A DNA stretch of 64,000 bases from a virus: IMG/VR virus record IMGVR_UViG_3300045988_122854. One strand, written 5' to 3'. Both the position numbers and the translations under genes were made by a program. A model generated the notes under the pieces. It did not search any database and had not been told where the DNA came from. It saw nothing but the letters and a program-made list of their open reading frames with translations. This document shows positions 27,506 to 46,332 of this stretch, one piece after another; position 1 is the first letter of the stretch, and each line of letters starts with the position of its first letter.

Positions 27506-28435
27506 TTAACAAATTCTAAAAGTTGTTGTATCCAATTTCAAATCATTAATTGATAATTTATCTAAATGAAAATATGGGATTCTAATTAACGGGATGTTAT
27601 TTTCTTTACACCATTGATTTTTAAAAGCATCATGTTCTTTTGTTTTTTCAAACTTTTCTAATGTATTCCAACCAGTTCCAGATTGATAATGCTATATTCC
27701 ATCAAATTCAATTAAATAAGAATTATCAATATAAAAATCAAATTTAGCTTTATGGTTAGTATCCTAAAATTTACAATTTTCAAAAGTTTTTTCACAAATA
27801 TACTAAATATTATGTTCTTTTAATAAAGAGATAATTTTTTCCTAACCTGCTGATTGTAAACAACCACAAGATTTACTTTGTCCTTTTCTTAAAGTAGTTC
27901 CTGATACAATTTTTTGATTGCCACAAGAGCATTGGCATAACCACATAGCAGTATTATGCTAATTAGATCCACTACGTTTTAACACTGTCCATCGACCAAA
28001 AGTTTGTCCTGTTAAATCAATTGTTGTAAGTTCACCGATCTTTTTATGAATATAACAACCACATGAAATAACGGCGCCACTTACTAAACCATCTTTACGA
28101 ATACTTTTAATAGTTCCACAATCACACTAACATTTCCAATAAGTATGCCCTTTTCCTTCTGTTCTATCATATCCTAAAACTGTTAGCATACCGAATTTTT
28201 TGCCTGTTAAATCTTTTAACAATTTTAAACGTTTCTAACATCCGCATGAAGTGGTATGATTTGAAGTTAAATGAGACGCAGAAACTACTGTTTTATTACC
28301 ACATTCACATTGGCATAACCAATATGGTCCGTTCCTTGGGTCTTCAACTCGATATAAAACTGTTAATTTTCCAAAATGCTAATTAGTCAAATCTTTTGCT
28401 CGGCCTACTGGAATCTATTTATAAATTTTTTCCAT
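27506..28435 (-). CDS. Three zinc-finger repeats plus a C-terminal DUF559/Vsr-like PD-(D/E)xK endonuclease domain; 9 in-frame TAG (homing-endonuclease-like)
   Basis: ATG 28433-35 with AAGGAG upstream; TAA at 27506-08. Three repeats of LTVL...YW.CQC.CG...SCGC. C-terminus KFDFYIDNSYLIEFDGI[TAG]HY resembles the DUF559 FDF...IE.DGxQH motif. No minus-strand ORF of 60 aa or more is called here, because TAG occurs every 60 codons or fewer. Confidence 0.5.
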
Positions 28436-30020
28436 AAAATCACTCCTTTTCTATTATATGTATAAATAGAAAAGGATAAAATAATAAAATTTGTCCGAAA
28501 TCGCCAACCTGATTATTCAACCGGCCTCCTTAAAATGTGTAAGCATTAAATTTATACATATAAAACTCGCCATCCATAAGAAGAAGTCTATCAGCTTCTT
28601 TTCGATGATCAATCATCCACCAGCCAGGCTTAGGAAGAGGGAGATCGAAGTATTCGATTCGTTGCGTTTCCATAATATCTTCTTCAATTGCGCCTTGAAG
28701 GAAAGCGAGGTAAAGTTCTTGCGCTTCTGCTTCCGAAATGTTGGCGAAGGTCCAAGACTTACTGGTCATTTCATCTTCGATTTTATAACAAGTAATTTCT
28801 TTCATAAGTCCTCCTTACATTTCAACCGCATCAACGAAATCAATGAAAACATCATCGGCGACGTTATTCATCATATTAAGATAAGAAGAGAATCTCTTAG
28901 TCCAATCGCCGGTCATCTCGCCGTGGTAGTGATACCAATCATAATCGGAATCTTTCTGAATTGCTTCAAACTGATGTTCCATAAGGCTATCATCGACCAT
29001 ATCTCGACAATACTCCATAAACATTTCCTGCATATCGGCTTCGGACGCATTCAGGAAATAGAAATTATGGTCTCCGGCCGTATCACAAAGAATACCAATG
29101 GAATGAATTTTAATATTAGAATTAGAAGTAGTCATAATTTTTATTTCCTTTCTTTACTTTATATATATATTATATATTATTTTTTATAAAAAATCAAAAA
29201 AGGATTTGCGGTTTGCGCAAATCCTTTTAAAGATTAGAGAACGGGAGCATAATTATAATAAATAATCATATCTTCCAATGCATCTTTGTAAAGTCTTGTA
29301 TCAAATTTATGACAGTGGAATCGTTTCTCGACATTCTCTTCGATTGCGGACATAGCGATTTCGAGAGCGTCAGATTCACTTACGTTTGTAGCACAGTAAA
29401 TCTCATCATAAGGCGCGTCATAAACGAATACGACAGGCATATGCTTCATATATTATTCCTCCATTAATTGATTTTACCCAAAATTTTTGTTATAATATAT
29501 TTAGAAATTAAAAGATTTCAATCGCGTTTTCAAAAAGATTGAGGAATTCATCAGCCACTTCGGAAGTTGCGAGAAGGCTTGTAGAAGAACCGCCATACCA
29601 ATCAATATGAATGCGCGTGAGTGGACTACCGCCCGCCTCCGCAATCTCATCCGCATACTGTTCAGAGTCAACCGCGGAAAAGCTAACGCTATTGATGTTG
29701 TTAGTATTGATAAGATACTTAATACCGCGGAAGTTGCGTAAAATTACAGTCATATAAATGCCTCGTCAGATACAAAATTTTTGAATTGCTTTATAACTGC
29801 GGTGCCATAGGGATCACCATCGGAAAAAGTGTATTCATAATGAGATTTATCTCTCATATAGATTTCAAGGTCTATTCCAGGAGTCTCGGTAGAGATATCA
29901 TCATCATCTGAGTTATCCATAGTGATGCGATTAGCCACGATCGAGATAATTTCGTTTATGTTAAGAAAAACGAAGTCGCCGTTAGACATTTTTAAATAAA
30001 TTAATTCACCTTTGTTCATT

Positions 30021-31841: not shown

Positions 31842-31994
31842 TTGAATAATGGTGATATGACTACTATGACAATTAGAATTTCATAGAGTGATAAAGATAT
31901 TCTCACTGAGATGGGGAAAGAATTAGATTTGAGTTTGTCTTATATTGTAAGACAAGCGCTTAAAGAATATATAGCAAATCATAGCAAATAAAGG
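31842..31994 (+). CDS. Ribbon-helix-helix (CopG/Arc/ParD-like) DNA-binding protein, about 50 aa, 1 in-frame TAG
   Basis: ...ISQSDKDILTEMGKELDLSLSYIVRQALKEYIANHSK: a beta-strand followed by two helices, typical RHH. Start TTG 31842 or ATG 31857. Confidence 0.5.
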
Positions 31995-32008
31995 AAGGTA
32001 TTGAACAA

Positions 32009-32209
32009 ATGGAAAATCAAAATACAAAGAAGAATATGATAGTATATTCTCTTAAAGTAATGGAAAAATTAGTGGAAAGAGGACATTTCCCTTTGTAGAT
32101 GATGCCGAACCCGAAGTTCCCGCAATATAATTGTTGGATATTCTCCGTCGACGAGAGCTTTTTAGCTGACTTTGAGGAGGTTTAGGGGGAGGGGAAACCG
32201 CGTGAATAA
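32009..32209 (+). CDS. Small hypothetical protein (66 aa, 2 TAG)
   Basis: AAGGAAGG RBS 10 nt upstream of ATG 32009; TAA at 32207-09. Confidence 0.4.
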
Positions 32210-32771
32210 TCATTTTACGTTTTGGGAAAATATGAAAGATAGTATAGATTTATATGATGATAACCCTGTTCTTAAATGTGAATTATATGATACTTTAATT
32301 GAGTTTGGTTTATATGGAACTATGCCCGAAGAGGGTGAATCAAATTATCGAGATAAAATGGTATTAATTTAGAGTTTAGCACCTTCTATTGAGAATTCCC
32401 GCAATTATATTAAAAATGCTTCTGAGAGTGGTAAAGCTGGTGGGAAGAAAACTAAATATGATGGTGATGATATAGTTAGAGCTGTTAAAGAAGCAACTAA
32501 AAGAAAAAATAGAGTTCCAACTCGTCAAGAAGTAGTTGATGTTTTTGCTGAGTTGACTGGATAGACTATGAATGTTAGAACTTTTTCTCGTAGATGTAAA
32601 GATGAAGAGAAATATAGAATCAGTCAAGAAGTTCTTAGAGGGACATCAGGGACATTGGGGACAAAAGAAATGTCCCTAGGGACACGAGAGACATTAGGGA
32701 CGTCAGAGACGTCAAGGGACATTGGGGACATTTTGAGGGACACGAGAGACACAAACACTTGGGAATTTTAA
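32202..32771 (+). CDS. HTH-containing protein (about 189 aa, 2 TAG). Its 3' third encodes GT(S/R)ETLGT repeats from a GGGACAT heptamer array; possible replication-initiator or partition-type DNA-binding protein
   Basis: GTG 32202 preceded by GGGGGAGGGG. Helix-turn-helix-like VPTRQEVVDVFAELTGQTMNVRTF. Same frame through TAG at 32373 and 32562 to TAA at 32769. Confidence 0.45.
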
Positions 32772-32930
32772 TTAATTTTAAATGAGAGGGACACGAGAGA
32801 CATGAGGGACATGAGAGACAAAAGCTTTAGTAAGTAGAGATTATGTCCCTATGTCCCTCATGTCCCTAACGGGACAAGAGAGACATGAGAGACATAATGT
32901 AATAAGTTATGTCCCTGACGTCCTTCGGAC
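32640..32930. repeat. Array of about 20 copies of the heptamer GGGACAT / ATGTCCC (variants GAGACAT, GGGACAC, GGGACGT) in both orientations; candidate origin, iteron or centromere-like site
   Basis: Direct reading: gggacatcagggacattggggac...atgtccctagggacacgagagacattagggacgtcagagacgtcaagggacattggggacat, followed after the stop by the inverted orientation (atgtccctatgtccctcatgtcccta). Confidence 0.6.
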
Positions 32931-32975
32931 GCAGGAACAATATGGAGATTTTTTTGAGAGTAAAAGGAGTAAAAT

Positions 32976-33272
32976 ATGAGTTATAGTTATACAGATATAA
33001 GAGGCGGAAAAGGGAACCCGTCTATTGTTAAATTTAGAAGAGGAACACAAGAATAGTTTGATAAGTTAGATAAGACAGGTATGATAAAACCTGATTTATA
33101 TATGAAAGATGATACTCTTTATTTAGTTATTCCAGATGATATGAAACCAATAAAGGTAAAGTATGACGATAGAAAAGTAGAATGGGATAAATCAGGTGTA
33201 GGAACTTTAATTAAAAATAATGATAAACCTGAATCAATAGAAGAGAATCCATTCCTACAAGATTATATTTAA
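32976..33272 (+). CDS. Hypothetical protein (98 aa, 1 TAG)
   Basis: AAAAGGAG RBS; ATG 32976; same frame as ORF 33081..33272. Confidence 0.45.
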
Positions 33273-33497
33273 CTCGGATACTACGTATCCTCGTTGATAG
33301 GGGTATTATTGACTTCGGGCATAAATGCCCTCGTTTATAGGGGTATTATTTGATTTATAATAAATAATATATTATAATATAAATAATAAAAGAAAGAAAT
33401 AGAATTTTGAAGTGGAATACCGGGGTAGATTATTTCTACATAGAGTAGGGGTATTTACTCCGGGAAGCATTTTAAATAATGAAATGAAAGTAAGGAT

Positions 33498-33905
33498 TTG
33501 AAAACTGAAATGAAATTTACGATTGAAGAATTAAAGAAGAATAATGGAGAAAAGGTAGGCGTCTTCCGCAATTGGAATGTAATTGCTACTACTAAGAAAG
33601 AGTTTTTTAATAGGGAGAATACGCAAGGCGCATATCTTATCTGGGACGATTGTAATAAGTTGGTTTTTAATGGTAAGGTTGTTGGTCGAATTACCGAGAA
33701 TGGTAAGGTTGAATATATCGAGAGTGAATATAGATATGTGAAGCCTGTATTAGAGGAGAAACCGCAGGTTATGAATTCTGTTGCTCCTGGATCTGATGAT
33801 GTGGATCTTAGTAAGAGAACGCTTGCCGATGACATTCTTGATAGTGCGTTTAAAACAAAGTTGGAGGAGTTGCTTGTAGATTCGAACACTACGTGTTCTC
33901 ATTGA
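33498..33905 (+). CDS. Hypothetical protein (135 aa)
   Basis: Intact ORF. Confidence 0.45.
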   Translation: MKTEMKFTIEELKKNNGEKVGVFRNWNVIATTKKEFFNRENTQGAYLIWDDCNKLVFNGKVVGRITENGKVEYIESEYRYVKPVLEEKPQVMNSVAPGSDDVDLSKRTLADDILDSAFKTKLEELLVDSNTTCSH

Positions 33906-34276: not shown

Positions 34277-34654
34277 TCACTTATTGATGAAAGTATTCAA
34301 AAAATCGGCAATTACATCATCATCGGTTTTCTTGACCTTCTTAACCTTTACCGGCTCACTCTTGGGGAAAAGCACGTCAAGAAGATCGTTAACCCCGGTC
34401 ATAAGACCGTAAACCTCAGCAAAGATATTCTCCACATCAGATGCGGTCAATGCGGAATCCTTGTAGCCATTAAGAGCAGCATACTCGTTAATCCGATCGG
34501 CGATTTCCTGCGCGAGCGCAGTCTTCCGATCGGCCTGCTTGGATTCCTTCTCCACCTGCTTAACCGCAGCATTCAGAGACTTAGCCATCTCGTCCGCAAT
34601 AGTCTGAGCGTCCTCACCATTCTTCAAACGAGCAATAATATCATTCATATCCAT
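34277..34654 (-). CDS. Hypothetical protein (125 aa)
   Basis: ORF behind a promoter-motif copy at 34660-34725. Confidence 0.45.
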   Translation of the reverse strand: MDMNDIIARLKNGEDAQTIADEMAKSLNAAVKQVEKESKQADRKTALAQEIADRINEYAALNGYKDSALTASDVENIFAEVYGLMTGVNDLLDVLFPKSEPVKVKKVKKTDDDVIADFLNTFINK

Positions 34655-35170
34655 ATGAATACCTCTTTTCTTATTTTCTATATATATTATATACTATTTT
34701 TTTAAAAATGTCAAGATTTTTTTGGATGAAAACATACGTGTGAAACAATGTAAGGACGAAGCAATTTTTAATTAATTATAAAGGCATATGATCCTACGCG
34801 GGCTTAAAAAAGTCTTTTTTTACTATTATAACATATTTTTTATAAAAAGTCAATTTTCGGGATTTTTTTGGGCCATATGAGAGGGTGCTAGAAGTATGAA
34901 AAATTTTGCATATGGGTATACCGATCGGAAACTCGGCCCGCGACGTTCCACCGCGGGCCGGCCAAATAGACTGAGTATTCCGGGATTTTAGTCTGAGTCT
35001 ATTTTAAACACTTTTTTCGCGCGAAATTTGCTAAACCTATAATTATTCCGAAATTCCGCCCGGAGCGTCAGTGATCGGGCGGTCCATTATACCACATTTT
35101 CCGATCGGTGTCAATAGGCAAAACGCACAAAAAAATCAGCAGGTTTTTAGTCAACCTGCTGATTGAATAT

Positions 35171-35587
35171 TTATGCAAGAAATGCGTTTACAATTTCATC
35201 GAAAACCGTGGGGTTAATGTCCACGTTAAAAAAGCGGTCGTTCTTGCGGAACGCTTTGGGGTATCGTCTAATCAGTTCCGCACGCAATGCGCTTTCCGCG
35301 CCCTCGGCGGGATAATCGCCACAAGAACGGATTCGATGAACTTCCACGCGCGTGATAGAATACTTTTTCGCGTATTCGCCGATTTCATCACGCAAGCGCC
35401 CTACAACGTCTTTTGCGGAAGTGCCTACCTTGTTAAATTCAAGTTCATTGTTGTTGTAAAACTTGAAAAAGTAGACCGCTTGAACGTCTTTCAGATTCTC
35501 GCCACAATTAGGCATAAACTCCATTGAAACAGGCGGTCTACCGTCCTTAAATCGGCGTAGCTTAATAGTAATTTCTTCCATTGACAC
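35171..35587 (-). CDS. Hypothetical protein, possible T5orf172 / GIY-YIG-like domain
   Basis: VYFFKFYNNNELEFNKVGTS...VVGRLRDE pattern; weak. Confidence 0.35.
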   Translation of the reverse strand: MSMEEITIKLRRFKDGRPPVSMEFMPNCGENLKDVQAVYFFKFYNNNELEFNKVGTSAKDVVGRLRDEIGEYAKKYSITRVEVHRIRSCGDYPAEGAESALRAELIRRYPKAFRKNDRFFNVDINPTVFDEIVNAFLA

Positions 35588-36211
35588 AAAATCCTCCCTA
35601 TTGATTGAGGTTTACCATCGTTCTCTCAACCATTATTTTTTGCACTTTTTGACTTGTTTTTGGGTGAAAAACCGCATTTTTCAGCGGTTTTTCACCCTTT
35701 TTCATCAGTTTTTGGGCTTTCGCTTCTGAATCAGGGTCAATTCGTAGTCATTTTCGCCCACATGGAACGCAATCATGCGCTCCACATTCGTAATTTCTAC
35801 GTTTTCGCACGCATTTTCGCTGTTTTCTCGCAAAAAAGTTGCAAGTTCAGCGATAATCGAGCGTTTTGTGGGGTTTTCCTTGCGCTGTCGCTTCTCAAAT
35901 TTATAAGCGGTCGGCGCTTTGCGTGTTCCGGTTTTAGAATACTTGTTAGCTTCTTTGAGCTTTTCCGCAGACAGGTCAAAGTCTTTGGCGATTCCATGGT
36001 CAATGTCATCATCGTCCATGAGAATTTCTTTTGCTTCCTCGGCAGTACAATCTAACTTTTTCATCAGATTGTCAATCTTTGCCTGAAAGTCCTTTTCACT
36101 CATTTTAGGCATTTTCTTTGCCCCCTTTCAAGTATGATTATAACACCGCCGTTAGCAAATGTCAAGAGAAATTTTTGGGAGCGCCTGATTTTTTTCAGGC
36201 GCTCCCCTGAA

Positions 36212-36589
36212 TCAGTGGGCGAGACGGAAGTAGGACTTGCGCTTGTCCACAATCTTCTCGACGCCGTTCGCTTCAATCATCTGACGCAGAAGAGCGGAAA
36301 CGCGCTGATTGGTGAGGTCGCCCAGACCGTCCACATTCTTGATGAGTTCGGTCACAGTGTAGAGCTTGTCAGGATTCGCGGACAGCTCGGCAAAGATAAT
36401 GTCCTTGTAGCCGTCGTTCGCAATCTGATTCGCGGTCGGCTTCTTATCACCGGCGTTCTTGCGAGCCAACAGGTCAATCTCGTGATTGATAAACTCAACC
36501 ATGGCGGGGTCAGCCTGAACCTCGCTCATTTTGAGCAGAGCCTCGAAACGGTCGCGCTTGGTGAGCTTCTTAACAGTAGAAGTAGACAT
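36212..36589 (-). CDS. Paralog-family protein (125 aa), copy 2
   Basis: About 70% identical to 38831..39211 over its full length. Confidence 0.55.
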   Translation of the reverse strand: MSTSTVKKLTKRDRFEALLKMSEVQADPAMVEFINHEIDLLARKNAGDKKPTANQIANDGYKDIIFAELSANPDKLYTVTELIKNVDGLGDLTNQRVSALLRQMIEANGVEKIVDKRKSYFRLAH

Positions 36590-36599
36590 AGTATCAATT

Positions 36600-37160
36600 C
36601 CTTTCTTTGCGGTAGGTCGCTACCCTTTTGATATATTGAGTATACTACATTTTAGAGTGCTTGTCAAGAGGTTTCGCAAACTTTTTACACGAATTACTAC
36701 CCCGACCTGACGGATAATTTATTGTTTGTTGGTTCAATCTATCTGTCAGCGAAAATCGCTTCGAGTATAGTTGGCTCAATCAAACTCACTTTCGCGTTCA
36801 ACGTTTGGCTTTACAACGTGGTGTATTATGTTTACTTCCTGTACTTTCTCAAGGTCGCGCGCCCTCGGATTTCTTGGGCTACTCCCTCTTGACATTTTCT
36901 ATTGTAGCACACTCGCTGGGATTTGTCAAGAGGTTTTCAAGAAAAAACTCATGAATTTTTTCTTTTATCCCGTGCGTTCCGCTCCGAAGAGACCTTAACG
37001 TAATAGGTGAACGGTCTATTGCTACTTCCAACCGTAGCCCCACACCGACCTGTGGCTCAGGGGTTTCCCTCTTGACATTATTCATTATAGCAGATTCCAC
37101 ATAGATTACAATTGACAAAATAACCAAATTACGGGAAAAAATTTTCTTCACTTTTGTGCA
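36600..37160 (-). promoter_or_regulatory. 560-bp non-coding leader with at least 3 tandem minus-strand promoters (TTGACA...TGcTATACT/TACAAT) and GC-rich structured segments
   Basis: No credible ORF (the 172-aa call 36879..37397 has implausible composition). Repeated ccctcttgacatt...tatagca blocks at 36880, 37060, 37170. Confidence 0.45.
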
Positions 37161-37313
37161 ACTTTTCTCTTGACAAAATTGGCGGGGTGTGGTATAATGG
37201 TGAATTCGGCCCGCTTTGGGCGTTAGCGGGCCGACCATTTTAACACAAAAATCCGCGTTTGTCAATAGGTAAAATAGACAAAAAAAACTGCCCATTTTTG
37301 GGCAGTTTTTCAT
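37070..37313. repeat. Face-to-face promoter / GC-hairpin module, copy A
   Basis: Plus TTGACA 37170-75 and TATAAT 37193-98. Hairpin cggcccgc...gcgggccg at 37207-33. Minus -10 (plus atttta 37237-42) and -35 (plus tgtcaa 37260-65), each with a 17-nt spacer. Terminator ctgccca-ttttt-gggcag at 37283-37311. Confidence 0.55.
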
Positions 37314-37314
37314 T

Positions 37315-37560
37315 TTAGTCCAGCAGGTTAATTTCTCCTGGAATTCTGAAAGAATCAGCGTCCAGTGTGGAATTGTAGTCCTCGGTAAAGAGTTCAATCA
37401 TTCCACATTCCATGACGTAATTCTGAACCGACCGCCGAACATTGTTCCAGAGGTCAGTCTTTCGGCTTTCCGCTCGGGCTTCCTTGGCTTCCTTTGCCTG
37501 AGCGATGAGTTCGTCCAGTTCTTCGTCAGTCATGTAATTAAAATCCAAATCCATTTTCAA
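37315..37560 (-). CDS. Small acidic hypothetical protein
   Basis: Intact ORF. Confidence 0.45.
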   Translation of the reverse strand: MKMDLDFNYMTDEELDELIAQAKEAKEARAESRKTDLWNNVRRSVQNYVMECGMIELFTEDYNSTLDADSFRIPGEINLLD

Positions 37561-37862
37561 AACTCCCCCTTAATGGCTTCTTTCCACGCGTCCCAGCCGA
37601 ACTTTCCCTCACTATCCAGCTTTTTGCCGATGCCTTTTGCGGTCAGTAGGTCAAGCTCGTCCGCGATTTCCTCTTCAAAGTTTACCCAAGAGTCGTAGGT
37701 CTGAATAATGACAATTTCGTCGGCTTCAAAGACGCCACCGCACTCGGCACAGATAACATAGTCATGGTCGATTAAAATGCCCATGTGAGGGTCATTGTCA
37801 TCAGGGACTACAAAAAGGACTTGTTTAGCGTTCATGTGAAACACCTCTTTCATTTGATACAT
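37557..37862 (-). CDS. Hypothetical protein (101 aa)
   Basis: ORF with 4-nt overlap to the next gene. Confidence 0.45.
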   Translation of the reverse strand: MYQMKEVFHMNAKQVLFVVPDDNDPHMGILIDHDYVICAECGGVFEADEIVIIQTYDSWVNFEEEIADELDLLTAKGIGKKLDSEGKFGWDAWKEAIKGEF

Positions 37863-37912
37863 TGATTATACCATAGGGAATAGGACTTGTCAAGCCCTAT
37901 TCCCTATTTTTT

Positions 37913-38689
37913 TTAGCCCATGTTTACAACGGGATTTTCCTTAATGTTTCGCATGAGCGCGCGCTGAAACTCGGTCGGCTTGGGGCGTTCCACCGTGGGA
38001 GTTTTGAAAAGGGACTTTTCCATAGTCTTGTGCTGTCGAACGCAATAGCGCAAAATCTCAACTTCAATGAGAACGTCTTCAAGTCCCGTATGCGATTCAT
38101 CAAAAGTGTCTTCGCCGCTGATAAAGCGATAGAGAATTTCTGCGGTAAAGCGGAGTTGTCCGTTCTTGGTCTTATAGCCGTTCTTTTCGCAATAGTCGCG
38201 ATAAGTAGGCATTTTGCCGATGACCTGTCGCGCCATTTTCAACGTGTCCCATATTTCAAGGTCGTAGGGGAAAAAATAGCGATACTTGCTTTTCGTGTCC
38301 CATCTTTGCGCGTTGTTGCAAGCGTTAAGGTCGAACCGCATATTGTGAGCGCACACAAAAGAACAGTTATAACGCTCGACGCAATCACAAAATGCCTTGC
38401 GGATTTCGTAAAGGTCAGCCATCACGCGCGAACCGTTCTTAATGTCCTCAACATAGCGGGGAATCTTGTCGGCGTAGTATGCGGACTGCATGAGGTCGCG
38501 CTCGTAGCAGAAAATATCTCGATTCACAAAGGAATAAGTTTCATAAACATTGCCCTTGGAATCAATAACCGCCCAGCCGAAGTCATAGGGAAGAACATTT
38601 GACATATCCAGCTTATCGCCGTCCTGAATGGTGTTCGCAGTTTCCGTGTCAAGCATAATACCGTAGTTTTTGCGCCTATCAATACCCAT
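37913..38689 (-). CDS. DEDDh 3'-5' exonuclease (DnaQ/epsilon-like)
   Basis: Exo I MLDTETA, Exo II VCAHNMRFDLNA, Exo III SHTGLEDVLI. Confidence 0.75.
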   Translation of the reverse strand: MGIDRRKNYGIMLDTETANTIQDGDKLDMSNVLPYDFGWAVIDSKGNVYETYSFVNRDIFCYERDLMQSAYYADKIPRYVEDIKNGSRVMADLYEIRKAFCDCVERYNCSFVCAHNMRFDLNACNNAQRWDTKSKYRYFFPYDLEIWDTLKMARQVIGKMPTYRDYCEKNGYKTKNGQLRFTAEILYRFISGEDTFDESHTGLEDVLIEVEILRYCVRQHKTMEKSLFKTPTVERPKPTEFQRALMRNIKENPVVNMG

Positions 38690-38830
38690 CTTATCGTCTC
38701 CTATTGGAAAAGTAGATTGAGGTTTACCATCGTTCTCTCAACCTCTGATAATAGTATAGCACTTTGCTATTGGTTTGTCAAGAGTTTTTTAATAGGGCAG
38801 GGGATTTTTTTATCCCCTGCCCTTTTCCCT

Positions 38831-39211
38831 TTACGCGAGGGAGAAGTAGGACTTGCGCTTGTCAACCGTCTTGACAACGGTGTTCGCGTCAATCATCTGA
38901 CGCAGAAGAGCGGAAACGCGCTGGTTAGAATACTCCGCAAGCTCGGGAACACCCTTGATGAGGTCGGTCACGGTATACAGCTTGTCAGGGTTGGCGGTCA
39001 TTTCGTCCAGAATGACCTGCTTCACAGCGTCATTCTCCATCTGCTTGGCCGTGGGCTTCTTATCACCCGCGTTCTTCTTGGCGAGCAGTTCAATCTCGTG
39101 CTCGATGAACGCCACCATGTCAGGATTCGCCTGAACCTCGCTCATTTTGAGCAGAGCCTCGAAACGGTCGCGCTTAGTGAGCTTCTTAGTCGTAGTAGTA
39201 GAAGTAGCCAT
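38831..39211 (-). CDS. Paralog-family protein (126 aa), copy 3
   Basis: See 36212..36589. Confidence 0.55.
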   Translation of the reverse strand: MATSTTTTKKLTKRDRFEALLKMSEVQANPDMVAFIEHEIELLAKKNAGDKKPTAKQMENDAVKQVILDEMTANPDKLYTVTDLIKGVPELAEYSNQRVSALLRQMIDANTVVKTVDKRKSYFSLA

Positions 39212-39229
39212 AGTATCAATTCCTTTCCG

Positions 39230-39620
39230 GTTTTTAAGACTGTCCTTGTCTTTGATGTAGTTATTATATCATAGGCGGAGCAGGCTGTCAATAGTTTTTG
39301 TAGATTTTTTTTAGGGGCGGTCGCGAGGTTTATTACTATACATCTTGTTTATACCTACCTTTATCTATAATCATAAACCAATTCATTTTACTAAACCAAA
39401 TCAATCTTTAAGGCGGTGGGCGAGCATCAGAAATCATCTTGTTTACCTCTTTTATTTGATGTATTCATTATACCCTACGTTGAGCGGTTTGTCAAGGGGT
39501 TTTTCAAACTTTTTTGAAAGTTTGTTCGGCACGCCACGCTTGGAACATTCCGTCGGATTTTGGTATAATGGCCAAGGGAACTGCCTTTCCGCAGGTCTTA
39601 CTCTTTCCTCCTGACATTAT
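39230..39620 (-). promoter_or_regulatory. 390-bp non-coding leader with tandem promoters, two mini-ORFs (10 and 9 aa) and a GC-rich structured segment
   Basis: Minus strand: TTGACA-N17-TATAAT at about 39250-39285; ext-10 TGCTATACT at about 39600; aggtaaacaagATG...taa (MISDARPPP) and aggtataaacaagATG...taa (MYSNKPRDRP). Confidence 0.4.
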
Positions 39621-39852
39621 GTAGTATAGCAGATTGGTATTGATTTGTCTATTGGCAAAATAACCAAATAACGGGAAAAAATAAAATTGAAATTTGTGCA
39701 AAATTTCTCTTGACAAAAATGCTGGCGGGGTGTATAATGGTAAATTCCGGCCGCGACATGCGTTGGCGGCCGGCCATTATATCACATTTAGATGGTTTTG
39801 TCAATAGTCAAATTAAACAAAAAAATCTCCCCAAAATTGGGGAGATTTTCAT
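39620..39852. repeat. Face-to-face promoter / GC-hairpin module, copy B
   Basis: Plus TTGACA 39710-15 and TATAAT 39733-38. Hairpin ccggccgc...gcggccgg at 39747-74. Minus TATAAT (plus attata) and TTGACA (plus tgtcaa 39799-804). Terminator at 39820-39850. Confidence 0.55.
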
Positions 39853-40128
39853 TTGAAATTAGTCAATGATACTAACTTCGGTCTTGACAGGCGTTACCAT
39901 CTTTTCGCGCGGGAACTCGCGAATCTGACCCGTTTCGAGGTTGACCGCATAGCAAAACTGCCAACCTCTTGATTTGAGGAACGGGGCTTTGTTGTTCCCA
40001 TCAATTTTAAGATACATACCCATTCCGCCCTCGCTTCTCAGTGTGGTGAACGTGCCACCGCACAGGATATTCATAATTTGGAGCTGACCCTTATCGCCAA
40101 AATTTACTTTCATTTTTTACTTCCCCTT

Positions 40129-40443
40129 TCAAAATTCTTCTAAGAAATGAATCGGTTTGTGATTTGGTCTGAAAAATGCCATTCCCTCATTGTAAAGAGA
40201 ATTAAACAAAAATTCGGGCACTTCAAACCATTCCGTACCACTAATGCGAATACCTAACTCATTTAAAGTCTGATGACAAGCATTTTCCATGTCTCGACTG
40301 CCCGCACAAGTGCTACGCATTATTGCTTTTGGATTGTGGCTATAATAGCTTTTGCGACGCTTTGAGAGGTTTTTAGTGCCATCGGAATAGCCAACTTTTA
40401 CTAAATGGCTATTGGCTAAATTATCCATCATCAAATACAGCAT
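40129..40443 (-). CDS. Hypothetical protein (104 aa)
   Basis: Intact ORF. Confidence 0.45.
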   Translation of the reverse strand: MLYLMMDNLANSHLVKVGYSDGTKNLSKRRKSYYSHNPKAIMRSTCAGSRDMENACHQTLNELGIRISGTEWFEVPEFLFNSLYNEGMAFFRPNHKPIHFLEEF

Positions 40444-40599
40444 TTTTACCTCACAGCAGATGGGTATTAACCCATTCTGCGGTCACAAGTCCAATTTCCT
40501 TAGAGACAACCGTTTCATAACGGTAATTACCACCGGCAGTTCGTCCGGTCACTTTGGCGAGAACGCCAAGGGTAAGCCAAAAATAAGGCATCATTTTTA

Positions 40600-40806
40600 T
40601 CACCCCTTTGAACCGACCGTAAAGAGCGAACGCAGAAGCAACAGAACAATCCAAATTGCGAGTGCCAGCTTCCACGAGAACACGATGACGAAAGTGCCGA
40701 TTGCGGTGATGCCGAGGGCGGGAAGAAGCCAGCAGAGAAGCCAGACAAAACCAGAGGTAAGCAGGAACGAAATTGCGAGAGACAACAGAATCAAAAGAAC
40801 AAACAT
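40600..40806 (-). CDS. 68-aa membrane peptide (two transmembrane helices); a 47-aa ORF (40451..40594) follows
   Basis: Hydrophobic sequence MFVLLILLSLAISFLLTSGFVWLLCWLLPALGITAIGTFVIVF... Confidence 0.35.
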   Translation of the reverse strand: MFVLLILLSLAISFLLTSGFVWLLCWLLPALGITAIGTFVIVFSWKLALAIWIVLLLLRSLFTVGSKG

Positions 40807-40861
40807 TTTATTTTCCCCTTTTCATTTGATGTATTTATTATACCATTGGAGTAGGGCTTTG

Positions 40862-41362
40862 TCAAGCCCTTTTCTCCAAAAGTTCCGAAAGTTTTTCGAT
40901 AATGTTTACTGCGGTCGGGTCGATGGTAGCGCCCAAGTGCCAACCATTCCGAACCTTTTCATTATCGTCAACCAAGATGGATACGTCGTAGCGGTCGCGC
41001 ACGCTGTCGGCCTTAGTCGCGCCATACTGGACGCCGTGGAAGTGGTCATAGTGGAAGCCCTGTTCTTCAAGCCACGCGCGCTTTGCTTCACGAACGGCGT
41101 TCTTGTATTCCTCGCTTGAATCCTTAGAGAGCCAAGTAATGATATTGATTTCCCAACCCTCGGCGCGGAGAAGTTCGCAAACTTCATTCAGTTCAGCCAT
41201 ATCACACATAGGAACGGCAGTTCGATAGGGCTTAGGATTTTCCGAACGGAGAAGCGCAAGCCAATCCTTGACGCCGTAGAGGTCAGCAATAGTGCCGTCC
41301 ATGTCAAAGTTAATGGAACGTCGAGTGGCTACAACGTGGGACTTGATGTAAATAATTTTCAT
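40862..41362 (-). CDS. HAD-superfamily 5'(3')-deoxyribonucleotidase-like protein
   Basis: Motif I FDMDGTIADL (DxDGT) and motif IV ILVDDN. Confidence 0.6.
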   Translation of the reverse strand: MKIIYIKSHVVATRRSINFDMDGTIADLYGVKDWLALLRSENPKPYRTAVPMCDMAELNEVCELLRAEGWEINIITWLSKDSSEEYKNAVREAKRAWLEEQGFHYDHFHGVQYGATKADSVRDRYDVSILVDDNEKVRNGWHLGATIDPTAVNIIEKLSELLEKRA

Positions 41363-41954
41363 AGATATTTACCCCTTTCCTTTACTGTATCTGTATTATA
41401 TCATACGTTTGCGCAGTTGTCAAGAGAAATTTTAGCAATTTTTCGCTTTATTTATCCATTCTTTCCATTGGTCTTCGGCAAACTTTTTATGCTCTTCCTG
41501 CCAAAGACCGCGTGCGATAACGTCTTTTACCGCGTCGTCAATGGAGAGATATTGGTCGAGAAGAACAAAGTCCTCGCAAAAGAACCGAGTTCGACCAAAG
41601 AATTTGCGGTTAGGGCGGATAACTTCATATACATAGATGAATAAAAAATCCCTATACGCTTCTTCACTGTACGCCTTGACCTCAAAGGTTCTTCCCTCAT
41701 ATTCATAAGTTTTCGGCTTACTCATAGTGCTTACCCCTTCCTTTACTATGCTTGTATTATACCACTATTGGATTTGCTTGTCAAGTGTTTTTTTCAAAAT
41801 TTTCGCGGTCTTTCTCAATACACGAAAGATAAGAAATTAAGCAAAATCAACACAGGAATAGCGTATACGATATTGAAAGAGTCCCACCCGAGACTTTCAC
41901 AGGAATAAGCAAAAATAAAGCCAAAAACGAGGCCAAAAATGCCGATTAAAATAA

Positions 41955-42218
41955 TCATTCTAAATCCTCTATATGACCGTAGTGTTCGTTGATATGCCAT
42001 TCAAGATAGGCATTAGTCGCAATCTGAATTTCTATATCTAACCAGTTATAAAAATCCTCGGGGTCGCGGGCCATGCGTTCATTAATAATATCAGCAAGAG
42101 AAACGCGATGAGCAAGGAATTCCGAAATATCAAGAGAATCCATAGAAGAAAGAAGCTCTTCCACACATTCTCCGCGAGTAGAGAACTTCTCAGTAGAAAA
42201 ATCGTGAGTGTAATACAT
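41955..42218 (-). CDS. Small acidic hypothetical protein (87 aa)
   Basis: Start taken at MYYTHD with AAAGGAAAGGGGA RBS; the upstream part of the longer ORF call is promoter/leader. Confidence 0.45.
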   Translation of the reverse strand: MYYTHDFSTEKFSTRGECVEELLSSMDSLDISEFLAHRVSLADIINERMARDPEDFYNWLDIEIQIATNAYLEWHINEHYGHIEDLE

Positions 42219-42239
42219 TGTTTGTATCCCCTTTCCTTT

Positions 42240-42485
42240 ACGGTAATCATAGTATAGCAGATTATTACATTCTTGTCTATTGGTAAAATGCCCAAATTCG
42301 GGAAAATAATTAGTTGGACTTTTGGCTAAATTTCCTATTGACAAATTGCTGGGATGGTGGTATAATGGAATTTCCGGCCGTGGCAGGCGCAAACGGCCGG
42401 CCATTTTATCACACTATTGGATTTTTGTCAATAGGCAAAATAAATAAAATTTTGAGACGAGATTTGGTTATCTCGTCTCAAAATA
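42240..42485. repeat. Face-to-face promoter / GC-hairpin module, copy C
   Basis: Plus TTGACA 42338-43 and TATAAT 42361-66. Hairpin ccggccg...cggccgg at 42375-42401. Minus -35 (plus tgtcaa 42426-31). Terminator at 42452-84. Confidence 0.55.
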
Positions 42486-42488
42486 TTT

Positions 42489-42941
42489 TTAACGTTCGGA
42501 CACAATGCTAAGGTAGCGGACAATCATGTCCATTTCGCAACCCTTGTCCTGCTGGTCGCAAACCGCATAACCAATGAGTTCGCCGTCTGCGGTAATCGGG
42601 TAAACGCCATAAGTGTTATTGAAAACAAACGGCTTTCTTTCGTATTCCCATTGGGTCGGAACATAGGCCGGATAGTTTTCCATACCCCGCAGTTTCACGG
42701 TAGTATCATAGATTGCGATGGGACGCAGGCCGGAATTCGACGCCATTGTAATAGCGGTTCGCAGAGCTTCTTCGGTCAGCGAACCAAGCACCGAATATCT
42801 CTTGAAGCAAACGCAGTCGTTGTCTTCAATGAAGATTTCGAGCGGGTCGCCCTCGCGAATCTTCAAAGTCCGGCGAATCTCTTTCGGGATAACCACACGT
42901 CCAAGGTCATCAATTCTGCGAATAATACCAGTAGCTTTCAT
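42489..42941 (-). CDS. AbrB/SpoVT/MazE-family (swapped-hairpin) DNA-binding regulator
   Basis: N-terminal MKATGIIRRIDDLGRVVIPKEIRRTLKIREGDPLEIF. Confidence 0.7.
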   Translation of the reverse strand: MKATGIIRRIDDLGRVVIPKEIRRTLKIREGDPLEIFIEDNDCVCFKRYSVLGSLTEEALRTAITMASNSGLRPIAIYDTTVKLRGMENYPAYVPTQWEYERKPFVFNNTYGVYPITADGELIGYAVCDQQDKGCEMDMIVRYLSIVSER

Positions 42942-43005
42942 TTTAATTTTCCCCTTTCACTTGATACGTTAAGTATAGCAGAACAAAAGGCTTTTGTCAA
43001 GCCCT

Positions 43006-43494
43006 TTATTCAAGATTTTTACTCTCATAAGCAGAAATTTTTCCATCACACTTATGTGCGATTTCCTTAACTGCTTTCGTCTGCTCTTGCGTGGAGCAAT
43101 AGCAATTAAACATCGTCCACTTACCCGCATAGAAGTAATTACAAGGAATGTCATAATCACTTACCATTAACTTTACAAGGTCGGCATTGTAATCTGCGGG
43201 AACGGCAAATTCGACTTTCCAAAGTTTATCTTTGCGGGCTTTCTCTTCAATCCACTTGACAAGGTAAACGCCTACGAAATTACAAACGGCAGTAATAGCC
43301 ATTTTTACCCAAATAGGCATACCGTCCGCGGAAGTCAGCACAATCACATAGGAATAAAAACCGTATGTAATAGCGTTGATGAAAGACGCGCTAAACTTTC
43401 CGCCCTTGACAGTCAAAATGCTTTTGATAGTTGACAGAATCACATTCACCGCCGTACAAAGCGCGAACAGAAGAATTGTATTCATTATTATCAC
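43006..43494 (-). CDS. Membrane protein (162 aa)
   Basis: 3-4 predicted transmembrane helices. Confidence 0.45.
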   Translation of the reverse strand: MIIMNTILLFALCTAVNVILSTIKSILTVKGGKFSASFINAITYGFYSYVIVLTSADGMPIWVKMAITAVCNFVGVYLVKWIEEKARKDKLWKVEFAVPADYNADLVKLMVSDYDIPCNYFYAGKWTMFNCYCSTQEQTKAVKEIAHKCDGKISAYESKNLE

Positions 43495-44039
43495 CCTTTC
43501 CTTTTTCTATTATAATAATAACATACTATAATAGAAATGTCAATAAAGAGTTTTTAATTTACTCTTTTAATTTTTCTAATAGGTCATCAGCACATTCATA
43601 GCTGATGCTCCGGCGGTCGCACTCGTTGGACAAAGGGCAACAGGCGCAGTCATTAAAAGTATCTACCCACATTCGAAGCCAATCTTCGAGCATATAGGTA
43701 TTGACTTCTTCATACATCATTCTTGACGCCATCTTTCCATTTTAGCTTCATAAGCCTGATGTTGTTTTTCCAGTTCAAAACCGCGCGCTATGGCAGACCG
43801 CGCAATATCGCTGATTTCTTCAAAATCTTCCGTGCAATAGATATTCTGATAGAAATATCTCGTTTTGAAAAACTTGCGGTTAGGGTGTACGACCTCGCGC
43901 ACGACTACATCAACCAAGCCATATCCACACCCTTCAACATAGACGCGGAATGTGCGGTTATTGAACTCATAAGTGCTGAACTTTTTCATTTTGTATTCCC
44001 CTTTCCCTTTGATGGTACTATCTTACCAAATTTTGGGAA

Positions 44040-44216
44040 TTTTGTCTATTGGCATTTTACACAAAAATTCGTGTGAAAATTTGTTGAACTTACCTCTTGA
44101 CAGAAAACTCGGCGCGCCACAGTCGTCCGCGCGCCGCCAATTTTATCACATTCAAGGAACTTTGTCAATAGTGAAATTAAACAAAAAAAATCTCCCAAAT
44201 TTGGGAGATTTTTCAT
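44040..44216. repeat. Promoter / GC-hairpin module, copy D (variant subtype)
   Basis: ttgaacttacctcttgacagaaaactc, then hairpin cggcgcgcc...ggcgcgccg at 44110-36, then tgtcaatag at 44163 and terminator at 44184-44215. Confidence 0.45.
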
Positions 44217-44749
44217 TTAGTTTTCTACGGCTTCGAGGTCGGCGAGAATGGGGACGAGCTTGTCTTCAAGAAGCGCGACACGTTCAATCATGTCATTTGC
44301 TTCTGCACCGCCCGATGGGTATCTCTTCTGAATACCGTATCGAGCCATTCTGCACACCGTTTCAACAACCTCGCTCAGTTTCTCATTCTTCATTTTTTTT
44401 ATCTCCATTCAATTTATTTTTTGGAAAGGGTGGCGGTTGTTTCAGGCACAACCGCCAAAGCCATAGGAAAGGGGGAGAAAAACACGAACAAAAGTTCGGT
44501 TTTGTCAAGGGATAATGAGTTCCGCGTCATAGACAGGCCGAACCATGCAAGGTGCGCCAAAGCAGTCGAGATTGTAAGTGTCCAAATTGAGAGCGTTCCA
44601 TTCTTCTGCGCCGGTATCTTCATCAACCACTGACGCGGTTTTGATGTAATAGACGTTTCCGGAAGCAGGGTCTTGAAAAATCATACCCTCGGGGAGGTCT
44701 TCAAATGCAACCATTTTGTTGCTATGCTTAACAGTAATTTTCATTTTAT

Positions 44750-45103
44750 TCACCCTTTATAATAGTATTTGTAAGCCCATTCAATGATTTCATGGCTCGT
44801 GGTAGTCCATTTTTCTTTATGGTTGTCAAACTTTTCCGCGCTTTTTTCAACATAATCATTATATTCCATGCGCGCGGTGTCGTATGCTCCAATAGCTACA
44901 AGCAAAGATTGTTTTGCTTTTTCAGCGTCAGACACGGCTTTCTTGCGGTCAGCGCCATCGGGGTAGAGGTTAATCACCCCTACGCGCGTAATGACTTGCC
45001 TTGTCTTTTCATAAAGGCGGTCGCGCTCTTCCCAAACTTTATAAATCAAATCGTCTGCATGACTTTCATATGGGTTGAAAGGCTTCTTTTTCTTACCGAA
45101 CAT
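44750..45103 (-). CDS. Hypothetical protein (about 117 aa)
   Basis: Start at MFGKKKK. The upstream part of the ORF call overlaps 45093..45431 in another frame. Confidence 0.4.
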   Translation of the reverse strand: MFGKKKKPFNPYESHADDLIYKVWEERDRLYEKTRQVITRVGVINLYPDGADRKKAVSDAEKAKQSLLVAIGAYDTARMEYNDYVEKSAEKFDNHKEKWTTTSHEIIEWAYKYYYKG

Positions 45104-45431
45104 TTTTCTTTTTCTCCTTTTCCTGTTTATTCCACATTTTATCGAAGAACGCATTTGCGAGGACACGCTTGTAAAGGTTGTCAGGCATGGGGCGCTCGCC
45201 GTGCTTGTTTCTCCATATTGCGGTGATTTTATCAATATCCGCGATATAGGCGGTAATGAGCGTGCCGTCCTTAGCGCTACGAATAAGCAGAATACCGGTC
45301 GTAGTGATAGTGTAAAGAACATCGTCCTCAACGCTGTCGATATACGGTTCGCCGATTCCTACATTATCGTAGATGAAGAGCAGGCGGTCAATGCGGTCTT
45401 GCGTGGCGTGTTTTGACATTTTGATAAGCAT
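45093..45431 (-). CDS. Hypothetical protein (112 aa)
   Basis: Intact ORF. Confidence 0.45.
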   Translation of the reverse strand: MLIKMSKHATQDRIDRLLFIYDNVGIGEPYIDSVEDDVLYTITTTGILLIRSAKDGTLITAYIADIDKITAIWRNKHGERPMPDNLYKRVLANAFFDKMWNKQEKEKKKNVR

Positions 45432-45929: not shown

Positions 45930-45987
45930 TTTATTTACCTCATCTTTCTGTTCCCTTGGAACAATTATAGTATAGCAAATGCTTAGG

Positions 45988-46195: not shown

Positions 46196-46332
46196 AGTAT
46201 GAAAAATTTGTTTACTACTTCAAGAGGCTTACCATTTCCTCTTGACAAGATTATAATACCACAACGGGGCGAGTTTGTCAATAGTTTTTTGAAAAAAATT
46301 TTCAGGCGAGATAATTAAATCTCGCCTGAAAA

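What the first reader, a model, noticed from the sequence alone, without database searches (positions are those of the whole stretch)
32202..32930. GGGACAT heptamer array (about 20 copies, both orientations) overlapping the 3' end of an HTH-protein gene
Over about 300 bp the heptamer recurs every 9-10 bp (one helical turn). It runs first in one orientation inside the coding region, where it encodes GT(S/R)ETLGT repeats, and then inverted after the stop. This is how replicon origins or iterons embedded in initiator genes, and partition centromeres, look. The gene upstream has a helix-turn-helix. It may mark the replication origin, or a partition site if the element can persist as a plasmid.
Basis: seen in the sequence. 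Interest (0 to 1): 0.6.

Follow-up and report, generated by a model that had tools for sequence, protein, structure and literature searches.

The report
Probable phage replication origin array
A dense cluster of 23 copies of the six-base word GGGACA, at and just after the end of a DNA-binding protein gene in an uncultured gut phage, is most likely that phage's replication start site, of a kind already known from other phages and staphylococcal islands.

Summary
23 copies of GRGACR (18 forward, 5 inverted) lie in window 32640-32915, where 0.23 are expected (P~4e-38), mostly 9 bp apart.

The first 12 copies lie inside the 3' end of a gene at 32202-32771. The genome is partly TAG-recoded, and this gene has two in-frame TAGs. 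Its protein has a DUF6291-type N-domain, a three-helix HTH, a disordered tail encoded by the repeats, and a conserved aromatic C-terminus.

The same hexamer array follows this gene in every relative examined, down to about 30% protein identity. That includes relatives whose ORF stops before the array, so the array is a DNA element and not a by-product of a protein repeat. Among close relatives the G-GAC core never varies (0/92 positions), while spacers do (16/128).

The same array also follows PriCT_2+AAA_25 primase/helicase genes in Streptococcus prophage replication modules. It occurs there only when the primase ends in an HTH with the helix SEKT[IV]RRW (7/7 against 0/4), and that domain resembles the focal HTH (hhalign P=5.6e-5).

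This layout matches the tested SaPI origins and recalls lambda and SPP1. Best reading: an iteron origin bound by the adjacent HTH protein (confidence 0.58). The partition reading is not supported, and GC skew is inconclusive. It is a new variant of a known kind.

The parts
31842..31991 (+). Ribbon-helix-helix (CopG/Arc-type) gene, first gene of the + strand operon. It has one in-frame TAG at 31884. The start is uncertain (TTG 31842 or ATG 31857).
   Evidence: Pfam RHH_1 E=5e-7 and DUF6290 E=7e-7; PHROG Arc-like repressor. An RHH gene sits at the same position in relatives L008, L009, L012 and L057.
32009..32209 (+). Small 66-aa ORF of unknown function with two in-frame TAGs. Its stop overlaps the start of the next gene by 8 nt (GTGAATAA).
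   Evidence: Read-through translation; no Pfam or PHROG hit. A 59-68 aa ORF with the same 8-nt overlap is conserved in relatives.
32202..32771 (+). Focal gene, 189 codons, GTG start, in-frame TAGs at 32370 and 32565. The protein has a DUF6291-type helical N-domain, a GG motif, a three-helix HTH, a disordered repeat-encoded tail and a C-terminal ...NTWEF.
32640..32751 (.). Array block A, inside the coding region: 11 forward GRGACR copies plus one inverted copy (32671-32676). The inverted copy forms the 14-bp palindrome TGTCCCTAGGGACA. This block encodes the disordered tail.
   Evidence: Unit number varies in frame among close relatives.
32752..32787 (.). AT-rich spacer containing the TAA stop (32769-32771). 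It includes a 20-bp pure A/T tract that is 9 bp shorter in L001 and L003.
   Evidence: Sequence; alignment.
32788..32820 (.). Array block B: 4 forward copies at 9-bp spacing, with YGA spacers.
32844..32866 (.). Array block C: 3 inverted copies (TGTCCC), preceded by a purine-rich spacer (32821-32843) that is conserved across the family as aagaaagaagag-like sequence.
32871..32894 (.). Array block D: 3 forward copies. Together with block C it forms a divergent junction, TGTCCCtaacGGGACA.
32910..32939 (.). Terminal element: the last inverted copy (TGTCCC) pairs with GGAACA around a GC mini-hairpin that has a CTTCG loop. A T7 run and the next gene's RBS follow.
   Evidence: RNA fold -15.4 kcal/mol, z = -2.2. 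Equivalent hairpins with different stems occur in L008, L009, L011, L012 and L014, z = -1.8 to -6.5. No Rfam family approaches its gathering score.
32976..33272 (+). Next gene of the operon, 98 aa, one in-frame TAG, function unknown.
   Evidence: no significant Pfam or PHROG hit. A small gene follows the array in relatives.

Best explanation
The array is an iteron-type origin of replication, or at least the cognate multi-site binding platform for the protein whose gene it overlaps.

Proposed mechanism:
1. The three-helix HTH of the DUF6291-HTH protein reads the hexamer GRGACR. This is inferred.
2. Many copies of the protein load onto about 23 sites arranged as forward blocks, inverted blocks and two divergent junctions. 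This is inferred.
3. The conserved aromatic C-terminal tip (WEF here, FNF in most relatives) sits on a repeat-encoded disordered tether. It recruits a helicase or another replisome component, because the protein itself has no helicase or primase domain. This is inferred.
4. Opening happens at the adjacent AT-rich tract or at the terminal palindrome. This is speculative.

What is shown: the array is a conserved DNA-level element under selection on its G-GAC core. Its presence tracks one HTH type in two unrelated protein architectures, and one of those architectures is a primase/helicase inside a replication module.
For: (1) Enrichment: 23 copies against 0.23 expected, P = 4e-38.
(2) Conservation: the array is present after the gene in all close relatives (L001-L007) and in distant ones at 30-46% protein identity (L008-L014, L057, L060), with the same hexamer and the same block order.
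(3) DNA-level element: in L009/L010, L014, L057 and L060 the ORF ends before the array or reaches only its first copies, yet the array persists.
(4) Selection: among 5 close relatives the core positions G1, G3, A4 and C5 vary at 0 of 92 sites. Spacers vary at 16 of 128 (P = 1.2e-4). All 8 variable hexamer positions are the R positions.
(5) Replication context: in about 22 IMG/VR contigs of mostly 35-42 kb and in Streptococcus Javan prophages, the same array begins right after the stop of a PriCT_2+AAA_25 protein annotated 'replicative DNA helicase repA'. The module runs AAA_24, SNF2 helicase, primase, array, RusA.
(6) Covariation: 7 of 7 such primases ending in ..SEKT[IV]RRW.. carry 4-17 hexamers in the downstream intergenic region. 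4 of 4 with another helix carry 0-1, and Javan488 has different repeats (P = 0.003).
(7) HTH similarity: the focal HTH domain aligns with that primase C-terminal domain over all three helices (hhalign local P = 5.6e-5, probability 66%), sharing KT[IV][SR]RR.
(8) Synteny: other DUF6291 proteins occupy the lambda-O-like slot, after a CII-like gene in Nitratiruptor phage NrS-3 and after ERF/YqaJ in a Riemerella phage.
(9) Precedent: SaPI origins are 6-12 penta/hexanucleotide iterons immediately downstream of rep, with an AT-rich centre and oppositely pointing iterons, read by a C-terminal winged helix (PMC9371898). SPP1 oriL is embedded in gene 38 and is bound by that gene's product (PMC5737612).
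(10) Block GC skews of -0.18, -0.06 and +0.205 fit a replication term that changes sign near 31-34 kb. This is weak support.
Against: No recognisable helicase, primase, polymerase or loader gene lies within about 20 kb of the array in the window or next to it in relatives of the large phages.

The AT-rich tract is short (20 bp) and varies in length among close relatives, so no clear DNA-unwinding element can be named.

The operon's genes contain in-frame TAGs. In recoded phages TAG has been linked to late genes (preprint 10.1101/2021.08.26.457843, title and abstract only), which is an odd fit for an early initiator.

The lowest cumulative GC skew in the window is at 52.9 kb, not at the array.

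The window protein itself does not reach Pfam significance for DUF6291. The fold searches gave no replication-protein match.

The HTH-to-hexamer link rests on correlation only.
Confidence: 0.58

Rival explanations
1. The array is an operator or silencing platform. Multiple copies of the HTH protein or of the upstream RHH repressor bind it to control transcription: autoregulation of the operon, gating of read-through into the downstream genes, or insulation from the converging minus-strand block. Replication plays no part.
For: An Arc/CopG-type repressor gene heads the operon. The array sits between genes of one operon and ends in a conserved hairpin followed by a T run. No replication genes lie nearby. 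Fold matches are to transcription-factor HTHs.
Against: The streptococcal prophage arrays have no RHH gene beside them and follow a primase/helicase instead. More than 20 sites spread over 280 bp, partly inside a coding region, is far beyond ordinary operator size. The array lies at the 3' end of the binder's gene and not at its promoter. The promoter region at 31.7-31.85 kb carries no hexamers.
Confidence: 0.17
2. The array is a partition centromere or genome-anchoring site, like parC, parH or the omega-binding heptad arrays, for a phage that can persist as a plasmid.
For: Short repeats in direct and inverted orientation, with an RHH gene in the same operon, resemble ParR/ParG/omega systems (resemblance recalled from general knowledge, not tested here).
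Against: The operon's five genes encode 49, 66, 189, 98 and 135 aa. None can be a ParA or ParM NTPase. The array co-occurs with the HTH domain and not with the RHH gene. In the temperate streptococcal phages it lies inside the replication module.
Confidence: 0.05
3. The array is a packaging (pac/cos-type) recognition site, and the HTH protein is a small-terminase-like recognition factor. P1 pac, with its hexamer repeats inside pacA, is the comparison (recalled from memory).
For: The protein has an HTH, an oligomerisation-size helical domain and a conserved C-terminal peptide, which loosely resembles the architecture of small terminases (inference only).
Against: The large terminase and portal genes lie 22 kb away at 55320-59094. 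In Javan17 the small terminase gene is a separate gene about 2.2 kb downstream of the array. In the streptococcal phages the array's partner is a primase/helicase.
Confidence: 0.04
4. The array has no DNA-level function. It is a by-product of a low-complexity protein repeat that expands by slippage.
For: Unit number varies in frame among close relatives, and the tail is predicted to be disordered.
Against: More than half of the copies are non-coding. Relatives keep the array when the ORF ends before it. Distant relatives translate the same hexamer in other frames and orientations (NVP, GDK, RDI). The core is invariant while the spacers drift.
Confidence: 0.02

Closest known systems
SaPI replication origins (Staphylococcus aureus pathogenicity islands; Rep/PriRep self-loading helicases)
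   Same: Short penta/hexanucleotide iterons lie immediately downstream of the ORF of the protein that reads them. Copies occur in both orientations around an AT-rich segment. A small C-terminal helical DNA-binding domain recognises them, and specificity covaries between protein and iterons (PMC9371898). The streptococcal prophage version found here, PriCT_2+AAA_25+HTH followed by the array, is essentially this design.
   Different: The focal protein has no primase or helicase domain. It carries DUF6291 instead. Copy number is higher (23 against 6-12). The first dozen copies are translated. No long central AT-rich region is evident. There is no experimental evidence.
Phage SPP1 oriL / G38P replisome organiser, and phage lambda ori within gene O
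   Same: The origin is embedded in the gene of the origin-binding protein. The initiator has no enzymatic domain and recruits the helicase through partners. Iterons lie next to an AT-rich unwinding element (SPP1: PMC5737612; lambda: from general knowledge).
   Different: Those iterons are longer (about 19 bp in lambda; AB boxes in SPP1) and few in number. The helicase and loader genes sit directly downstream, whereas none is recognisable here. The focal protein shows no sequence or fold similarity to O or G38P.
RHH centromere/operator arrays (omega of pSM19035, ParG/parH, ParR/parC)
   Same: Arrays of very short repeats in direct and inverted orientation at sub-helical-turn spacing, with an RHH gene in the operon (recalled from general knowledge).
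   Different: No partition NTPase gene is present. The array tracks an HTH and not the RHH. In other phages it occurs inside replication modules.

Membership tests
Iteron-type replication origin | Multiple copies of a short specific sequence clustered in a few hundred bp | tested here: met
   23 GRGACR copies in 276 bp against 0.23 expected.
Iteron-type replication origin | Repeats bound specifically by a cognate initiator encoded nearby | not testable with these tools
   Indirect evidence only: covariation between HTH type and hexamer (7/7 against 0/4) and similarity of the HTH domains. Gel shift or footprinting is needed.
Iteron-type replication origin | Adjacent AT-rich DNA-unwinding element | tested here: inconclusive
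   A 20-bp pure A/T tract lies at 32765-32784 between blocks A and B, but it is 9 bp shorter in L001 and L003. The genome is AT-rich overall.
Iteron-type replication origin | Physical linkage to replication genes | tested here: inconclusive
   Met for the same array in streptococcal prophages, where it lies between the primase/helicase gene and RusA. Not met in the window or in large-phage relatives.
Iteron-type replication origin | Supports initiation of replication (autonomous replication, initiation mapping, marker frequency) | not testable with these tools
   GC skew is confounded by gene orientation and covers only 64 kb.
Pfam DUF6291 (PF19808) | Significant match of the N-terminal domain to the family profile | tested here: inconclusive
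   The window protein has no hit at E<=0.1. 11 of 19 aligned homologues do hit (best 4e-8), and precomputed hits exist on P0016, P0017, P0042 and P0049. Membership is therefore by transitive homology.
Partition centromere (type Ib/II par systems) | Adjacent ParA or ParM NTPase gene | tested here: not met
   Operon genes encode 49, 66, 189, 98 and 135 aa with no NTPase. None appears in the relatives' gene tables either.
Partition centromere (type Ib/II par systems) | Repeats co-distributed with the centromere-binding (RHH) protein | tested here: not met
   The same array occurs in about 22 viral contigs and in the Javan prophages without an RHH gene beside it.
Known RNA families (Rfam) | Match reaching the gathering score | tested here: not met
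   The best hits are spurious miRNA models at 21-26 bits against thresholds of 64-100.

The most novel reading that the evidence does not exclude
The three-helix HTH plus its GGGACA array may be a portable origin-recognition cassette. It would have been exchanged between two unrelated initiator architectures: primase/helicase in about 40-kb temperate streptococcal phages, and DUF6291 in 130-200 kb TAG-recoded gut phages. In the large phages the iterons are also translated into the initiator's disordered tether, so gain or loss of iterons changes site number and tether length at the same time. Because the specificity is shared, the large phage's protein could also act on the origins of resident prophages, or the reverse (cross-talk or interference).
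Probability: 0.15. Interest if true: 0.7.

Novelty: new variant of a known kind. Interest (0 to 1): 0.5.

Why it matters
If correct, it does four things.
1. It pins down a candidate origin and initiator for a group of large, uncultured, TAG-recoded human-gut phages that have almost no annotated genes in this region.
2. It gives a first functional hypothesis for DUF6291: an origin-binding, replisome-organising protein.
3. It identifies the probable origins of many Streptococcus (Javan) prophages, which are currently unannotated intergenic DNA after 'repA'.
4. It offers a clean example of dual coding, where iterons double as codons for a disordered linker.

The shared HTH/hexamer pair also hints that the window phage infects a member of the Bacillota. 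Practically, such arrays break short-read assemblies: contigs L004 and L005 end inside the array.

Tried and rejected
- Megablast of 22 kb around the locus, and tblastn of two family members, against 50,697 GenBank phage records found nothing.
- Pfam, NCBIfam and PHROGs give no function for the focal protein. There are only weak IS630-type HTH hits and an unknown-function PHROG.
- A profile search of PDB sequences found nothing meaningful.
- The search for related loci with the family alignment failed for lack of a conserved stretch.
- I looked for a specificity switch inside the DUF6291 family, meaning a different recognition helix with a different repeat. None was found: clades with ..KSIGRKG.. 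and ..KTVSRN.. still use GGGACA/GGACA.
- The genome contigs pattern scan mostly returned chance hits in high-GC genomes, plus unrelated REP-like palindromes (GGGACAaggtnccTGTCCCtnTGTCCC) between housekeeping genes of Bacillaceae.
- GC skew cannot place the origin.
- The primary SaPI origin papers (PMC1964853, PMC3804134) are not held. No paper mentions DUF6291.
- The phAss-1 group of TAG-recoded gut phages (PMC10607447) was considered as the source group. The window has no megablast match in the phage collection, which argues against a close relationship; I did not confirm that the phAss-1 records are in that collection.

Full report
**1. Observation**

The region was read directly. Exact GGGACAT occurs 14 times in the window. 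Ten of these (five per strand) lie in 32640-32915; shuffles give a mean of 3.97 and a maximum of 9 for the whole window. The degenerate core GRGACR occurs 23 times there (18 forward, 5 inverted). The remaining 63.7 kb holds 52 copies, which predicts 0.23 for this stretch (P = 4e-38). Twelve of the 17 gaps between successive forward copies are exactly 9 bp, and the extended unit is roughly aGRGACAyn.

The layout is as follows:
- Block A, 32640-32751: 11 forward copies plus one inverted copy, which makes the palindrome TGTCCCTAGGGACA.
- An AT-rich spacer holding the stop codon (32769-32771).
- Block B, 32788-32820: 4 forward copies.
- A purine-rich spacer.
- Block C, 32844-32866: 3 inverted copies.
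- Block D, 32871-32894: 3 forward copies.
- A last inverted copy at 32910-32915. It pairs with GGAACA around a small GC hairpin with a CTTCG loop (fold -15.4 kcal/mol, z = -2.2).

**2. The gene**

Standard-code ORF calling breaks the reading frame at TAG 32370 and TAG 32565. Across the window, many long frames become continuous only if TAG is read through. Examples are 8-11 in-frame TAGs in the large terminase (55320-57062, phrog_2 E = 5.7e-20) and the portal gene (57415-59094, phrog_2739 E = 1e-81). This is therefore a tailed phage that is partly TAG-recoded.

Database homologues of the focal protein were called with Q at these positions and are 86-100% identical. They come from human-gut contigs of up to 198 kb.

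Homologues begin M..FTFW.NMK. This supports the GTG start at 32202, which overlaps the stop of the preceding 66-aa ORF by 8 nt. The operon is: RHH gene (about 31842-31991; Pfam RHH_1 E = 5e-7), small ORF (32009-32209), focal gene (32202-32771), array, a 98-aa gene (32976-33272) and a 135-aa gene (33498-33905). It forms a short + strand island between two minus-strand blocks.

**3. The protein**

The window protein has no direct Pfam hit. However, 11 of 19 aligned homologues match DUF6291 (best E = 4e-8). An exhaustive HMMER search of 1.84 billion cluster representatives found only 22 related clusters, and a profile search found 44 proteins at 90% clustering. All come from metagenomes.

Every full-length family member ends in aromatic-x-Phe (FNF, FDF, FTF; WEF here). 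The segment between the HTH and this tip varies from 0 to about 70 residues.

**4. The array is a DNA element**

The tails of distant homologues are rich in GQN, GDK, NVP, DVP and GT. Their DNA shows why: the same hexamer, GGGACA/TGTCCC, is translated in whichever frame and orientation it happens to lie (NVP = AAT GTC CCn; GDK = GGG GAC AAA).

Loci of relatives at 30-46% identity (L008-L014, L057, L060) each carry 8-26 copies within a few hundred bp at or after the gene's 3' end and almost none elsewhere. In L057 there are 9 strict copies plus many GGACAA. The block order is the same as in the window, including the purine-rich spacer and the terminal hairpin.

In L009/L010, L014 and L060 the ORF stops before the array, and in L057 it reaches only the first copies. 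The array is there all the same.

Among five close relatives the core positions G1, G3, A4 and C5 are invariant (0 of 92). Spacers vary at 16 of 128 positions and carry indels (P = 1.2e-4). All eight variable hexamer positions are the two R positions.

In the coding block the spacers never form an in-frame TGA, whereas YGA spacers dominate the non-coding blocks. Both the DNA sites and the open frame are therefore maintained.

**5. The same array in replication modules**

A pattern taken from blocks C and D (TGTCCCTNTGTCCCTN{1,14}GGGACA) found 29 IMG/VR loci. Only three carry the DUF6291-HTH gene. About 22 others, mostly from 35-42 kb contigs, carry 9-17 hexamers that start right after the stop of a 750-800 aa protein, on whichever strand that gene lies. 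That protein is PriCT_2 + AAA_25 (E = 1e-31 and 8e-20). It sits in the module AAA_24, SNF2-type helicase, primase, array, small ORF, RusA.

BLAST links these contigs to 36 Streptococcus 'Javan' prophages, plus Paenibacillus, Enterococcus and Faecalibacterium phages. There the gene is annotated 'replicative DNA helicase, repA' and the array region is unannotated.

**6. Which protein reads the hexamer?**

The primases end in a small helical domain, ...FDGI.PV.L.D.VEYFST.DKPVSEKT[IV]RRW.... I examined eleven Javan prophages with homologous primases:
- Seven have the SEKT[IV]RRW helix. They carry 4-17 hexamers in the 320-470 bp intergenic region that follows.
- Four have other helices (KSVENYIKE, VKTVTRRLN, ERTVENYIQE, EKTVRNHLKE). 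They carry 0-1 hexamers, and Javan488 carries a different repeat instead.

This split gives P = 0.003.

A profile comparison of the focal family's HTH region with this primase domain aligns all three helices (local hhalign P = 5.6e-5, probability 66%). With whole-protein profiles the match is weaker (E = 1.3e-3, probability 18.5%). The two share KT[IV][SR]RR in the third helix.

The RHH gene is absent from the streptococcal modules. The simplest reading is that this HTH type recognises GRGACR and that the array is its loading platform. This is correlation, not proof.

**7. Comparison with known systems**

SaPI origins are described as 6-12 penta- or hexanucleotide iterons immediately downstream of the rep ORF. 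They have an AT-rich centre and at least two oppositely pointing iterons on each side, and they are read by a winged-helix domain in the C-terminal domain of the Rep helicase (PMC9371898). The streptococcal prophage arrangement is the same design, and the window's arrangement keeps the cis element and the reader domain.

SPP1 oriL is embedded in gene 38 and is bound by that gene's product, a replisome organiser without enzymatic domains that works through a loader and a helicase (PMC5737612). Lambda ori inside gene O is the classic parallel (general knowledge).

Other DUF6291 proteins occupy the slot where lambda O sits. In Nitratiruptor phage NrS-3 the slot follows a CII-like gene, and in a Riemerella phage it follows ERF/YqaJ, there fused to Phg_2220_C.

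**8. What does not fit**

- No helicase, primase, polymerase or loader is recognisable within about 20 kb in the window or beside the module in large-phage relatives.
- The AT tract is short and variable.
- The operon's genes contain TAG codons. In recoded phages TAG has been linked to late genes (preprint 10.1101/2021.08.26.457843, title and abstract only).
- The lowest cumulative skew in the window is at 52.9 kb, with only a local minimum at 30.4 kb.

Block skews are -0.18 (left, minus-strand genes), -0.06 (middle, minus-strand genes) and +0.205 (right, plus-strand genes). They fit a transcription term of about 0.12 plus a replication term of about 0.06 that changes sign near 31-34 kb. The middle block also differs in GC content (0.42 against 0.33), so this is weak support.

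**9. Rivals**

- An operator or silencing role is the main alternative (0.17).
- A partition centromere is disfavoured (0.05). There is no NTPase gene, and the array does not travel with the RHH gene.
- A packaging site is unlikely (0.04). The terminase and portal genes are 22 kb away, and the array's partner elsewhere is a primase.
- A pure protein-repeat by-product is contradicted by section 4 (0.02).

**10. Verdict**

The partition alternative is not supported, and the skew test is uninformative. It is a new variant of a known kind: a SaPI/lambda/SPP1-style iteron origin whose reader domain is fused to an uncharacterised DUF6291 module, with part of the iteron array translated into the protein's disordered tether. 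Confidence that the array is a specific protein-binding platform is about 0.9; that the adjacent HTH is the binder, about 0.7; that the function is a replication origin, about 0.58.

Noticed in passing
window 3042-6402 (-), 27506-28453 (-), 31842-33272 (+), 53007-60690 (+): Partial TAG recoding. These genes carry 1-11 in-frame TAG codons each, including the large terminase and the portal gene, while many other genes carry none. No suppressor tRNA(CTA) lies in the window; only tRNA-Trp (18-102) and an odd tRNA-like call (126-196) are present.
   Followed up: partly
window 274-10378 (-): A RiPP-like biosynthetic cluster in a phage. It comprises a Peptidase_U32-like gene (274-1152), YcaO (1164-2717, E = 1e-22), a radical-SAM + glycosyltransferase-2 fusion (3756-5852), a radical-SAM gene (8100-9599), a CxxxCxxC protein (6697-8103) and a Ser/Asn/Tyr-rich low-complexity 248-aa ORF (9632-10378).
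   Followed up: partly
window 33273-33460 (+): Three exact copies of TAGGGGTATT (33298, 33338, 33446). The first two each follow a small GC hairpin, and a roughly 60-bp almost pure A/T stretch (33350-33410) comes next. The region lies between the fourth and fifth genes of the operon, about 400 bp from the array. It could hold phage-specific promoters or terminators, or the true unwinding region.
   Followed up: partly
window 34277-52600: The middle minus-strand block has higher GC (0.42 against 0.33), weak GC skew (-0.06) and negative AT skew (-0.10) compared with its flanks. Its genes are almost all unannotatable. It may be a compositionally distinct module.
   Followed up: partly
L044 4732-5134 (Javan535), L046 3747-4117 (Javan17), L041 8535-8800 and about 20 other loci: Streptococcus prophages carry unannotated GGGACA arrays, together with AT-rich palindromes and GC hairpins, right after the 'repA' primase/helicase gene. 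These are probably their replication origins. Javan488 has different repeats (AGAAAAATACTAGTTAATTTCT) at the same place.
   Followed up: yes
L004 (ends at 3853) and L005 (ends at 6670): Short-read (Logan) contigs of close relatives end inside the array, so this repeat breaks assemblies.
   Followed up: no
L065, L067, L072, L073, L076, L079 (Bacillaceae chromosomes): Intergenic palindromic units GGGACAaggtnccTGTCCCtnTGTCCC lie between housekeeping genes. They look like REP-type elements and are unrelated to the phage arrays.
   Followed up: partly
window 11298-12752 (-) and 15237-16844 (-): Two large genes (476 and 534 aa) look paralogous by eye; no alignment was run. Both have Cys-rich zinc-ribbon-like C-termini and no Pfam or PHROG match. 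A 309-aa protein built of repeated CxC/CGC motifs with 10 in-frame TAGs lies at 27506-28453.
   Followed up: no
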